Shown: positions 30,201 to 33,200 of the stretch, piece by piece
Layout: every line of letters begins with the position of its first letter
Numbering within the stretch: the first letter of the stretch is position 1
From: Callorhinchus milii
Lineage: Eukaryota
Reading direction: 5' to 3'
NCBI RefSeq assembly: GCF_018977255.1
Contig: NW_024704753.1
Location: 18,290,001 to 18,354,000 of the forward strand
DNA length: 64,000 nucleotides
Position numbers: made by a program

Positions 30201-33200
30201 TCACAGTAAACACAACTGGGTTTTTCATTTCATTCGACAAGGCATCACAGCCATCCCAATCATGCGCTCACACAGCATTCAGCTCCAGCATGGTATGATG
30301 TCCATTTACTAAGATTAATAAATAGAATGAATGAGTGCAGCGAGTTTTACTGTTACCTCTTTCCAGCAAACCTTCGGTAAGGAGTATATTATACTCCTTA
30401 AGCACCTGCTGAAGTCTATAGTATTCCGTTAAGCATCGTTGCCGAAACTCATTCGTGGCTTCACCATCTGGTCCTTTCAGTGAGGACAGCAGGGAATGGC
30501 AGGCCACAGCCTGATCAATTCCTGTTTTAAATTGACATATTTGCACTTTTTCCTGGTATTCCTTGTTCTCCTGCAAGGCAAGGGGAAAAAGAGTCTGAAA
30601 AACATCCATCTCGTCTTTACAATGCATTTGACCACAAAGAAGAGCTGTGATTCCGGACTGGCTTAATTGTTTGCAAACGTAAAGTGCTTTTGCAGTTTTA
30701 GCTGGTTGAACTCTGGTAGTATCCCAGACACACACTCTGGGTCCCAAGCCTTGCCTCTTGTCGATTTGTGCCTAACTTGTGCCTTTCGCCCACGAAATAT
30801 ACAGTTAATTCACTTTACAATATATTCTGTGAAGCGCTTTGAGACGTCTCGAAGACTTGATGAGGCTCTATATCAAATGTAAGGATTATTATTATTATGG
30901 TTATTATTATTAATACAGTAATCTCCAGAATATAAAGATGTTTGACCATCATTTAACGTCTGATCTGAACTATATCAGATGCTGTGAGACACCAAACAAC
31001 GACGACTTGTATTTATATAACGCCCTTCACGTTGGTTTGCGCCCCGGAGTGCTTGGCAATGCCTTCACATAGTGAGGGAGAGGGAATTGGATGAGTATCA
31101 TCTCACATTGCCTGTTCTCATGCTTATTCCGAACAGCTCGCTAAATAAATTCTTGGGGGAAATAGAGCAAGTTTTACTCTTACGCTCTCCTGTTTATAAT
31201 CAGGAAAAAATGTGGGAAGCCTTCCATTTCCCTCATCGAACATCGAATTCGGTCTACCACCCCCGTCAACACTCTATCCAAAATTCGATGAATAGGATAC
31301 AACGCAGCCATTATACAAATGATTTCTAAATTACCTTCAATAGTTTGTCGCTTCCCAATTTCCACTGCTGGAAAAGCCTCAGCTCCTCTGCTGTAAATGG
31401 TCTTCTCTCGGACAGATCGATCGGCGGAACTTGTAGGTTGTTTGATAGTTTTACCAGGGGATAGGGCTCTATTGAAGTGTTTATGTAAGGTACAGCTGTA
31501 CAGGGTTTTTCGGGGCAACGGTTAGATATTAAAGTGAGATACGAGGTGGTCAGAATAATAGAGGGAAAGCCGCGATCTGCAGGAAAAGAAAAACAATTTA
31601 TAGCGGCTTATAAACACCTGAAATATGCTCCTTTGCTAAGCTGAAGCGGCTTAAAGGAGCATATTTTATTAATAATAGTACTAATAATAATCCTTGCATT
31701 TGATATAGAGCTTTATCACGTCTTTGAGATGCCTCAAAGCGCTTCTGAGCACGTTTTAATTGAAGGAGAGAGAGGAGCAGAAAGGCAGAAAGAAATGATG
31801 TGATGTGTTTTTCTGGGCGGCTCCCAATCCGTGGTATATTTTTTGTAAAAAGATAATAACACGTCTCCCTGCAGGAAAGACACACTTGCAAGCAGCCCCT
31901 CACATTGACAACAACAACTTGCATTTATATAGCCTCCCTCACACCGGGTAGTGTCCCAGAGCGCCTGACATGCCTGTCATCAACAAGTTAGCGTGTGAGG
32001 AATCGCTAACAATGAAGCAACGCACTCCTCTGCTCTAAGTCACAGAATCCTGAGTGGTCCAAACACTCAGTTTATGTGGATTATTTTCTGTGTCTTAGTT
32101 TCTGTACTTCGCTCGTGCTAAGGTGAGACGGGATCATAATTGCGCTTGGTATACCTTGGTATACTGAGAGAGAGAGTATTTTGTTGTGGATGTTGATTTT
32201 GTTGGGACGTACGTCCTCCTGACGTGAAAGGCGCTACGCAAATGTAATTTTATTGTTGTTGTTGTTGATTCGGCTCGCTAATGCAGGCTGGCGTGTCCTG
32301 ATTGAGCATGGCTCATTCCCTTCTTGAAAAATGCTTCCCATAAAGGAAACAATGAAAGAATCATAAGAACATGAAAAATTTGCTCGGCCCAAGAAAACCA
32401 AGGTCCATCTGGTTCACCTTCCACCATCCTGGCAGTCGCTTGACACATCGCGTCCCAAACTACACACTGTATCCCCGAGATTTTATTTTCTAGCAGAAAT
32501 CGATCTGATTTGTTCTTCAAATAAAACAACACCTTCTGCTCTATCAAATGCTCTACAGTCTACAAGTTCTCTGTGATAGTTTTGCCTATAAGGGCTCCTG
32601 ATGAGGAGTCTCCTTGTCGGAGGTTTTATCTCTTGCAAGTTCTTACCTGATTGATACAATTGGTTCCGAACTTCCTGACGGACTTCCTTCTTCCAGGTCT
32701 TCTGACCATGAGCAAGATCTTTGTATAAAATATCGCCCGCTTTACCCAGTGTATCTACCATATCATCCAGCTCTAGGTCACTGATTGGAATGTGAGCCTG
32801 TTTAACAGAACAAAACAAAATAATAATCATAATCTTTGCATTTGATATACAGCGCCTTATCACGTCATCGAGACGTCTCAAAACACTTCGCAGGATATAC
32901 TGTAAAAGGATTTGACTGTGTATTTTGTGAGCAAAACGCGGCAGCCAATTGCCCACGGCAGCGTCCCCGCAAACAGCCGCGGATTGAGTGACCAAATTAT
33001 TATTTTTTTCAAAACTATTATTTTTTTTGAAGGGATTGTCACCACCGGAAAAGCGATGCATCAATCGACTAATTACTGCTAGATAAACAGAGGTGTGTGT
33101 GTGAATTAAAGAAATTTTAATTTTCGCCCTGCTCGGGAATCGAACCCGGGTCCTCTCACTCGCAAGACGGGTGCTCTAACCCCTGAGCTGCAGGACTACC

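What the first reader, a model, noticed from the sequence alone, without database searches (positions are those of the whole stretch)
32798..33199. An EFCAB12 intron that is essentially one SINE
Seen: the 402-nt intron between ...DVIMK and AHIPIS... begins AAG|gtagtcctgcagctcaggggttagagcac. The SINE head (consensus gtggagtcctgtagctcag) starts at intron position ~3 and supplies most of the donor. The SINE tail (gattatgattattatt) merges into ttgttttgttctgttaaacag. Removing the element leaves only about 25 nt, below a normal vertebrate intron size. Inference: either the SINE created the intron, or it landed in an ancestral intron whose original sequence was then deleted, so the SINE now provides the splice signals and length.
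Basis: partly seen in the sequence, partly recalled or inferred. Interest (0 to 1): 0.72.

Follow-up and report, generated by a model that had tools for sequence, protein, structure and literature searches.

The report
Shark-relative intron almost entirely one SINE
In the elephant shark EFCAB12 gene, one short intron consists almost wholly of a single common mobile element, most likely because the element replaced the inside of an older intron, not because it created a new one.

Summary
The window is Callorhinchus milii. On the minus strand, EFCAB12 has a 402-nt phase-0 GT-AG intron (33199..32798). A full-length, sense-oriented tRNA-Ala-headed SINE of the published CmiSINE type fills 33199/33197..32818. 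Only GT and a 20-21-nt T-rich tract ending in CAG lie outside it.

The splice junction (..DVIMK|AHIPIS..) matches the UniRef model and is collinear, with no indel, with three frog EFCAB12 proteins.

I favour an older intron whose interior was replaced by the SINE (about 0.7):
- The acceptor tract is not SINE sequence.
- The SINE-derived donor positions +4 to +6 mismatch the donor consensus, so they are tolerated, not contributed.
- C. milii is reported to have the fewest intron changes of any jawed vertebrate compared.
- The lengths of 25 short unnamed ORF hits suggest this exon ends at the same place in other vertebrates.

Intron creation by the SINE stays possible (about 0.12). No eukaryotic genomic DNA was available, so the orthologous intron position could not be checked directly. 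The SINE family covers 15% of the window, so a SINE in an intron is ordinary; only the geometry is unusual.

The parts
33200..33403 (-). EFCAB12 exon upstream of the intron (68 codons, AMMDVE...NLQDVIMK), phase 0 at both ends
   Evidence: Sequence read. It is 100% identical to residues 151-218 of UniRef A0A4W3K1N6_CALMI. Frog EFCAB12 proteins align to 33379..33209.
33198..33199 (-). Donor GT. Its origin is ambiguous: either native intron sequence or the first bases of the SINE.
   Evidence: The family's 5' end reads (G)TGGAGTCC in other copies, whereas this copy reads GT-AGTCC.
32818..33197 (-). Full-length, sense-oriented CmiSINE-type element (tRNA-Ala head, body, L2-type tail ending in ATT repeats). 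Profile alignments extend it to 33199.
   Evidence: nhmmer with the profile of 7 other copies: 33199..32818, profile positions 3-377, E 2.8e-90. Alignment with 7 other copies. Divergence from the local consensus is 43 of 355 sites, p = 0.121.
33124..33197 (-). tRNA-Ala-like head of the SINE (A box altered, B box GGTTCGATTCC intact), starting at intron position +3
   Evidence: ARAGORN places it at 33125..33196. Rfam RF00005 places it at 33124..33197, 35.7 bits.
32819..32834 (-). SINE tail repeat GATTATGATTATTATT (five ATT-like units)
   Evidence: The 45 tails in the window carry 2-6 such units.
32798..32818 (-). Non-SINE remainder TTGTTTTGTTCTGTTAAACAG: pyrimidine-rich tract and acceptor CAG, taken as the surviving 3' end of the older intron
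   Evidence: It lies outside the profile match. None of the 44 other tails has a similar continuation.
32647..32797 (-). EFCAB12 exon downstream of the intron (AHIPISDLELDD...NQLYQS, 151 nt), followed by donor CAG|GTAAGA
   Evidence: The IPISDL motif is invariant in the alignment with three frog proteins. Frog HSPs start at 32803.

Best explanation
This is intron 2 of Callorhinchus milii EFCAB12, an ordinary U2-type GT-AG phase-0 intron that is probably much older than the element inside it. A CmiSINE is a holocephalan-specific tRNA-Ala/CORE SINE mobilised by the L2-2_CM LINE. One copy integrated in the sense orientation just upstream of the intron's pyrimidine tract (position -21). Its 5' end became joined at intron position +1 to +3, and all the original intron DNA in between was lost.

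The loss most simply happened in one step, as a target-site deletion during target-primed reverse transcription. Less simply, it happened through later deletions.

The intron still splices for three reasons. The exon side of the donor (AAG), the GT and the A at +3 remain adequate for U1. The native pyrimidine tract and CAG survive. The SINE tail can supply a branch point and the body supplies the length an intron needs.

Shown here: the SINE boundaries, the family identity, the splice junction and its collinearity with orthologues. Inferred: that the intron predates the SINE, and the route by which the old sequence was lost.
For: 1. Element and boundaries:.

2. Family. The tRNA-Ala head, the shared 3' region and the very high copy number match the published CmiSINEs: 302,861 copies, absent from elasmobranch and bony-fish genomes, tail shared with L2-2_CM (PMC5499810, abstract and Results read). 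In the window the family gives 60 profile hits covering 9,752 of 64,000 nt, or 15.2%. A SINE inside a given intron is therefore expected.

3. Timing. This copy differs from the local consensus at 12.1% of sites, close to the published SINE2-1_CM mean of 12.6%. The paper's own rough clock puts the activity peak at about 105-163 Ma, long after the 421 Ma split from elasmobranchs.

4. Junction. UniRef A0A4W3K1N6_CALMI reads ...DVIMKAHIPISDL.... Three frog EFCAB12 proteins (E 4.5e-53 to 2.2e-51) align across the junction without a gap. Their tblastn matches stop and resume on either side of the 402 nt.

5. Acceptor. The 20-21 nt before the AG are not SINE sequence. They resemble the other acceptors of the gene, with 12 of 20 pyrimidines ending in CAG.

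6. Donor. GTAGTC is the only donor of the gene's six that is not GTAA... This is what a foreign sequence abutting a native GT would look like.

7. Prior. [quoted passage not shown]

8. Indirect sign of a conserved exon end. The exon peptide found 47 other representatives, of which 25 are shorter than 200 aa. Working from the table alone, 13 of the 25 end within 13 residues of the exon's last residue, 7 end at 14-49 and 5 at 50 or more. A chance in-frame stop every 64/3 codons would give 12.2, 10.5 and 2.3. In addition, 19 of the 25 start no more than 20 residues before the exon's first residue. This is the pattern of single-exon genomic ORFs that run into an intron at this same spot in other species.

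9. Mechanism. Upstream second-strand cleavage giving target-site deletions is an accepted outcome of non-LTR integration (PMC2881922, passages).
Against: The geometry is improbable for a random insertion into an older intron. The deletion would have to end within 0-2 nt of the donor GT at one side and leave only 20-21 nt at the other. My own rough, unvalidated estimate is that well under a handful of such introns would arise genome-wide.

The exon-end evidence in point 8 rests on lengths only. The sequences were not opened because they are unnamed and any of them might be human. Their species are unknown, and contig ends could mimic stops. Five of the 25 run 51-93 residues past the exon end. 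Four of those five start at the exon start, which would also fit species where the two exons are fused.

The absence of a target-site duplication says nothing either way. None of the 9 full-length copies tested has a significant one (best 6 nt, matched by 77-83 of 1000 shuffles; the intron copy has 5 nt, matched by 556 of 1000).

The tail of this SINE family can grow into long T/A/G-rich arrays: the copy at 40028 is followed by an array of about 480 nt. A tail origin for the pyrimidine tract is therefore not impossible.

No transcript data were available.
Confidence: 0.7

Rival explanations
1. Intron gain. The two exons were once one 355-nt exon. A sense-oriented CmiSINE inserted after ...ATGAAG. 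Its 5' end (GTGGAGTCC, later losing GG) gave the donor GT. Its ATT-repeat tail, extended into a T/G-rich run, plus a very short duplicated or mutated target (..AG) gave the acceptor. The insert was then spliced out exactly, in the manner of an introner.
For: The element fills 95% of the intron and begins at +1 to +3, which is what a transposon-made intron looks like. GT + AGTCC equals the family's GTGGAGTCC minus GG. The site AAG|G is a proto-splice site. The family's sense-strand tail is T-rich and can expand. Transposon-made coding introns are in print for another vertebrate: notothenioid slc26a2 introns 3 and 5 (PMC12357937, passages). A SINE-made coding intron in rice catalase A is cited in PMC2394776 (passages). 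Five of the 25 short ORF hits have lengths that would fit fused exons in some species.
Against: The 20-21 nt before the acceptor are neither SINE sequence (none of the 44 other tails continues this way) nor a copy of the upstream exon end. By my own reading, only 5 of the last 12 nt match, whereas 12% divergence predicts about 10-11 of 12. They are not former coding sequence either, since the frog proteins show no gap at the junction. Donor positions +4 to +6 from the SINE mismatch the consensus. C. milii has the lowest reported intron turnover among jawed vertebrates (PMC3964593). No introners were found in vertebrates in a survey of thousands of genomes (PMC9860276, passage). Twenty of the 25 short ORF hits end as if an intron follows this exon in other species too.
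Confidence: 0.12
2. Older intron, stepwise route. The SINE inserted into a short ancestral intron, and separate later deletions removed the remaining native sequence on the 5' side. Loss at integration plays no part.
For: Neighbouring introns are short. The six EFCAB12 introns measure 402-1070 nt, so the ancestral intron may have been small. Small deletions accumulate in non-coding DNA, which I take as general knowledge.
Against: An independent deletion would need one end within 0-2 nt of the donor GT and the other exactly at the SINE's 5' end, yet the SINE itself is intact over profile positions 3-377. A single integration-coupled loss needs fewer coincidences. The present data cannot separate the two routes.
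Confidence: 0.15
3. The annotated junction is not the one used, or not the only one. The SINE-abutted donor is weak, so the intron could be partly retained or the exon spliced differently.
For: The donor AAG|GTAGTC lacks the consensus at +4 to +6. Retention would hit a stop after 7 codons (GTA GTC CTG CAG CTC AGG GGT TAG). The only support for the junction is a pipeline gene model and protein collinearity.
Against: The junction restores a reading frame that is collinear with three frog orthologues, without any indel, and leads into an invariant IPISDL motif. The nearest alternative AG (..CCAATCAG|TG) would shift the frame, and the nearest alternative GT (GAT|GTCATT) is a poorer donor.
Confidence: 0.04

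Closest known systems
CmiSINEs (SINE2-1_CM / SINE2B-1_CM) of Callorhinchus milii, CORE-SINE superfamily (Luchetti et al. 2017, PMC5499810)
   Same: tRNA-Ala-like head with a B box, a 3' region shared among very many copies, ATT-repeat end, huge copy number, and about 12% divergence from the consensus.
   Different: Nothing about the element itself differs. Only its position is unusual: it spans an intron from the donor to 21 nt before the acceptor. The subfamily was not assigned because the Repbase consensus sequences were not on hand.
Target-site deletion at non-LTR retrotransposon integration (review PMC2881922)
   Same: The element replaces host DNA instead of simply adding to it, and no target-site duplication is seen.
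   Different: The deletion is inferred, not shown, because the pre-insertion allele is unknown. Duplications are also undetectable for the other copies in the window.
Transposon-made introns: introners (PMC9860276), notothenioid slc26a2 introns 3 and 5 (PMC12357937), Alu 'intronization' in 3' UTRs and the rice catalase A SINE intron (both in PMC2394776)
   Same: The intron is almost co-extensive with one mobile element, and the element abuts the donor.
   Different: Here the acceptor tract is not part of the element. No duplicated target supplies the splice sites. Indirect evidence suggests the exon boundary exists in other vertebrates. None of the other five EFCAB12 introns shows the same pattern.

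Membership tests
CmiSINE (SINE2-1_CM / SINE2B-1_CM) | tRNA-Ala-derived head with pol III A and B boxes | tested here: met
   ARAGORN calls tRNA-Ala(tgc) at 33125..33196. Rfam tRNA scores 35.7 bits against a cutoff of 29. GGTTCGATTCC is intact, and the A-box region differs from the family consensus at 2 positions.
CmiSINE (SINE2-1_CM / SINE2B-1_CM) | CORE domain in the body and a tail homologous to LINE L2-2_CM | not testable with these tools
Body and tail are homologous over their full length to 7 other copies in the window.
CmiSINE (SINE2-1_CM / SINE2B-1_CM) | Very high copy number in the C. milii genome | tested here: met
   60 profile hits cover 15.2% of the 64-kb window, and 10 of them start at profile position 8 or earlier. 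The paper reports 302,861 copies.
U2-type spliceosomal intron | GT-AG ends, and removal restores a conserved reading frame | tested here: met
   One search shows the ends. The junction matches the UniRef model and is gap-free against three frog orthologues.
U2-type spliceosomal intron | Spliced in transcripts | not testable with these tools
   No RNA-seq or cDNA data were available. The UniRef model is a pipeline prediction, and its evidence is unknown to me.
Transposon-generated intron (introner-like gain) | Intron absent at the orthologous position in outgroups | not testable with these tools
   No eukaryotic genomic DNA collection was open. Indirectly, the length pattern of 20 of the 25 short ORF hits fits an intron after this exon elsewhere, and that of 5 of 25 could fit fused exons.
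Transposon-generated intron (introner-like gain) | Both intron ends coincide with the element ends or its target-site duplication | tested here: not met
   The 5' end coincides (+1 to +3). The 3' end does not: 20-21 nt of non-element sequence precede the AG. No duplication was found (itself uninformative).
Transposon-generated intron (introner-like gain) | Many introns made by the same element family | tested here: inconclusive
   None of the other five EFCAB12 introns is SINE-filled. Their SINE shares are 0, 7, 15, 44 and 46%, against 95% here. A genome-wide scan was not possible.

The most novel reading that the evidence does not exclude
A holocephalan-specific SINE inserted into the coding sequence of EFCAB12 and was spliced out from the start. 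That would create a constitutive phase-0 intron in the vertebrate lineage reported to have the lowest intron turnover. The SINE's own 5' GT would serve as donor and its T-rich tail as pyrimidine tract. CmiSINEs, with about 300,000 copies, would then be a latent intron-making family in a vertebrate.
Probability: 0.12. Interest if true: 0.72.

Novelty: new member of a known kind. Interest (0 to 1): 0.36.

Why it matters
If the intron is old, this is a tidy natural experiment. Almost every base of a vertebrate intron, including donor positions +3 to +6 and probably the branch point, can be swapped for a tRNA-derived SINE without loss of the gene. It also points to integration-coupled deletion by an L2-type LINE in a cartilaginous fish. 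That is useful but not surprising.

If the SINE made the intron, it would be a rare and datable case of intron gain in a vertebrate coding region by a known retroposon family, with a mechanism readable from the sequence. It would also justify a genome-wide search for more cases. One comparison with any elasmobranch or bony-vertebrate EFCAB12 gene settles which of the two it is.

Tried and rejected
1. Seven lost codons. The 21 nt before the acceptor are open in frame (LFCSVKQ), so I asked whether they are former coding sequence. Rejected: the frog proteins show no gap at the junction.

2. Internal repeat in the protein. An equivalent intron in a second repeat would have dated this one. Residues 151-268 against 341-470 of the UniRef protein score 20, below the shuffle mean of 27.5, and 499 of 500 shuffles score at least as high. 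Rejected.

3. Target-site duplication as a discriminator. It is uninformative, because none of the 9 copies tested is significant.

4. ATTATGA occurs both at the exon end and in the SINE tail. I take this as chance. It is 7 nt, not at the element's end, and the longest shared word, ATTAT, is reached by 556 of 1000 shuffles.

5. RNA fold of the donor plus the tRNA-like head: -29.4 kcal/mol, z = -0.44, and 66 of 200 shuffles fold at least as well. There is no sign of a special structure.

6. Pfam on the UniRef protein found nothing above cutoff (best VasI, 15.6 bits against 26.5), so no domain argument is available.

7. Word-based searches. The exon peptide with lengths 'longer' found only the C. 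milii record among 8 candidates. The downstream exon peptide with lengths 'near' found no candidate.

8. Hoh & Salzberg list of 342 human-lineage intron gains. EFCAB12 has 0 occurrences in the one supplementary file held as text. This is weak evidence and does not map to this position.

9. A search for EFCAB12 in the paper library returned 29 papers. None of the 15 listed concerns gene structure (listing only).

The window's exons were searched one by one. All junction-spanning comparisons rest on the database's own record A0A4W3K1N6_CALMI.
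Full report
WHAT THE WINDOW IS. The 68-codon exon just upstream of the flagged intron is 100% identical to residues 151-218 of UniRef A0A4W3K1N6_CALMI, a 539-aa protein of Callorhinchus milii, the elephant shark. That record's best relatives are three frog proteins named EF-hand calcium-binding domain-containing protein 12 (E 4.5e-53 to 2.2e-51, 30-31% identity; 4 proteins passed among 8000 scored candidates). The window is therefore C. milii, not human, and the gene is EFCAB12 on the minus strand. 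No contig here was taken for human.

GENE MODEL. tblastn of the UniRef record onto the window gives seven exon blocks. The window's exons were searched one at a time, and every junction-spanning statement rests on the database record.

THE OBSERVATION. It is correct in every particular.
- The intron is 33199..32798, 402 nt, GT-AG, phase 0. It lies between ..NLQDVIMK and AHIPISDL..
- ARAGORN and Rfam both call a tRNA-Ala-like sequence at 33124/5..33196/7, which is from intron position +3/+4.
- Eight such heads occur in the window, and all eight sit at the 5' end of a longer repeat.
- A profile made from the seven other copies matches the intron from 33199 to 32818 over profile positions 3-377 (E 2.8e-90).
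- Outside the element are only the GT, which could belong to either, and the last 20-21 nt, TTGTTTTGTTCTGTTAAACAG.

WHAT THE ELEMENT IS. Its anatomy matches the CmiSINEs (SINE2-1_CM and SINE2B-1_CM) described by Luchetti et al. 2017 (PMC5499810; abstract and the whole Results section read).
- The paper describes tRNA-Ala-derived heads, a CORE-type body and a tail shared with the LINE L2-2_CM.
- It reports 302,861 copies in C. milii and none in the shark, skate, teleost, coelacanth or lamprey genomes searched.
- Mean divergence is 12.6% and 17.2% for the two subfamilies, with activity peaks placed at roughly 105-163 Ma by the paper's own crude clock.
- The intron copy differs from a local consensus at 43 of 355 sites, or 12.1%.
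- In the window the family gives 60 profile hits covering 15.2% of the sequence.
- The shares of the six EFCAB12 introns covered by these hits are 0, 95, 7, 15, 44 and 46%.

A SINE in an intron is therefore ordinary here. Only the near-complete filling of intron 2 is unusual. I could not test the CORE domain or the L2-2_CM tail directly, because those reference sequences were not on hand.

THE JUNCTION. The UniRef model uses exactly this junction. In the alignment with the three frog proteins there is no gap at K218|A219, and the next residues (A, I, P, I, S, D, L) are invariant columns. Frog proteins searched against the window stop at 33209 and resume at 32803, with consecutive residue numbers once the three codons IMK are counted. 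So the 402 nt are removed, and the 21 nt before the acceptor were not coding sequence in the common ancestor with frogs.

GAIN OR REPLACEMENT. The direct test is whether the same intron exists in species without CmiSINEs. It could not be run, because no eukaryotic genomic DNA was available. The case therefore rests on indirect evidence.

For an older intron:
(a) The acceptor region is not SINE. Of 45 SINE tails in the window, the 44 others end after 2-6 ATT-like units and pass into unrelated sequence, and none continues with a TTGTT-type run. The tract looks like the gene's other acceptors.
(b) The tract is not a duplicated copy of the exon end. By my reading, only 5 of the last 12 nt match.
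(c) The SINE-derived donor positions +4 to +6 (GTC) mismatch the consensus MAG|GTRAGT, which I recall as textbook knowledge. The other five donors all read GTAA. The donor works through AAG|GTA despite the SINE, not because of it.
[quoted passage not shown] A survey of thousands of genomes saw no introner pattern in vertebrates (PMC9860276, passage).
(e) A full HMMER scan with the exon peptide returned 47 other representatives, 25 of them shorter than 200 aa. Using only the lengths and match coordinates in that table, 19 of the 25 begin no more than 20 residues before the exon's first residue. Thirteen of the 25 end within 13 residues after its last residue, 7 end at 14-49 and 5 at 50 or more. 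A stop every 64/3 codons predicts 12.2, 10.5 and 2.3. That is the signature of single-exon genomic ORFs running into an intron at this same boundary in other animals.

Limits of point (e). I did not open these sequences. Point (e) is therefore suggestive only. Five of the 25 run 51-93 residues beyond the boundary. Four of those five start at the exon start, which would also fit species in which the two exons are fused.

For a gain:
- The element fills the intron from the donor onward.
- GT+AGTCC equals the family's GTGGAGTCC minus two bases.
- AAG|G is a proto-splice site.
- The family's sense-strand tail is T-rich and can expand. The copy at 40028 is followed by an AT/GT-rich array of about 480 nt.
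- Transposon-made coding introns have been described in another vertebrate group (notothenioid slc26a2, PMC12357937, passages) and for a SINE in rice (cited in PMC2394776, passages).
- The replacement scenario needs a coincidence: the lost segment must end within 0-2 nt of the GT.

WEIGHING. I put an older intron with replaced content at about 0.7. Within that, a single integration-coupled target-site deletion is the simplest route, and upstream second-strand cleavage is an accepted outcome of target-primed reverse transcription (PMC2881922, passages). Stepwise deletions are the less simple route. I put gain by SINE insertion at about 0.12 and a wrong or non-exclusive junction at about 0.04.

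The lack of a target-site duplication cannot be used either way. None of the nine full-length copies tested has a significant one.

HOW IT WORKS NOW (inferred). U1 pairs with AAG|GTA. The native pyrimidine tract and CAG serve as acceptor. Only 20-21 native nucleotides remain upstream of the AG, so the branch point must lie in the SINE tail. The SINE body supplies the length needed for an intron. If the intron were retained, a stop would follow after seven codons.

COMPARISON AND NOVELTY. The element is a known family, the gene and its model are known, and TE-filled or TE-made introns are known kinds. The particular case of a vertebrate coding intron in which one SINE runs from the donor to 21 nt before the acceptor is not mentioned in the papers my searches returned. 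I read none of these in full: Results only for PMC5499810, passages for the other six, listings for the rest. I rate it a new member of a known kind, of modest interest unless the orthologue comparison shows a gain.

DEAD ENDS. An internal-repeat test, an RNA fold of the donor plus head (z = -0.44), Pfam, two word-based protein searches and a look for EFCAB12 in a list of human-lineage intron gains (0 occurrences) added nothing.

SUPPLEMENTS NOT SEEN. The supplements of PMC3964593 (Notes V and VII) and of PMC5499810 may bear on the gain question and on subfamily assignment.

Noticed in passing
window 27661..27786 (minus strand): All three frog EFCAB12 proteins match a further conserved block (..AFWPG..L.KLR.YLP..) downstream of the stop of the UniRef C. 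milii model (E 1.5e-4 to 8e-3). In the alignment the C. milii model lacks the conserved frog C-terminus. The database model probably misses the true last exon or exons, or represents a short isoform.
   Followed up: partly
window 17091..17431 (+) and 17484..17805 (-): Two near full-length copies of the same SINE lie in inverted orientation only 52 nt apart. If transcribed together they could form a hairpin of about 320 bp.
   Followed up: no
window 40028..40919: A full-length SINE carries an internal (CA)n expansion. Its ATT tail runs into a 480-nt AT-rich tandem array with periods of 8, 42 and 105 nt. This shows that the family's tails seed satellites.
   Followed up: partly
window 12711, 14984, 17731, 21710, 33124, 40031, 43054, 56336: All 8 tRNA calls by Rfam, and the 6 by ARAGORN (five Ala, one Val), are SINE heads and not tRNA genes. 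Each sits at the 5' end of a full-length SINE profile hit.
   Followed up: yes
window about 36.2-39.9 kb (minus) and from about 42.6 kb (plus): ORFs with MBD and glycosylase-like motifs (MBD4-like) and WD-repeat ORFs (IFT122-like) flank EFCAB12. They sit head to head across a GC-rich repeat region at 40.9-42.4 kb that includes a 98-nt tandem repeat at 42070..42287. The gene names come from my reading of the ORFs and from recall of the human gene order, not from a search.
   Followed up: no
window 6500..7300: This is the most GC-rich stretch of the window (0.59). It is open in several frames on both strands and encodes Pro/Ser-rich or Gly/Glu/Arg-rich low-complexity repeats. It is probably a GC-rich minisatellite and not a gene.
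   Followed up: no
window 28674..28734 (minus-strand coding): A 21-nt tandem repeat (2.9 copies) lies inside the last exon of the UniRef model and encodes the repeated KIGKQVT near its C-terminus.
   Followed up: no
window, one run of 534 N: An assembly gap or masked stretch, flanked by GC-rich low-complexity sequence.
   Followed up: no
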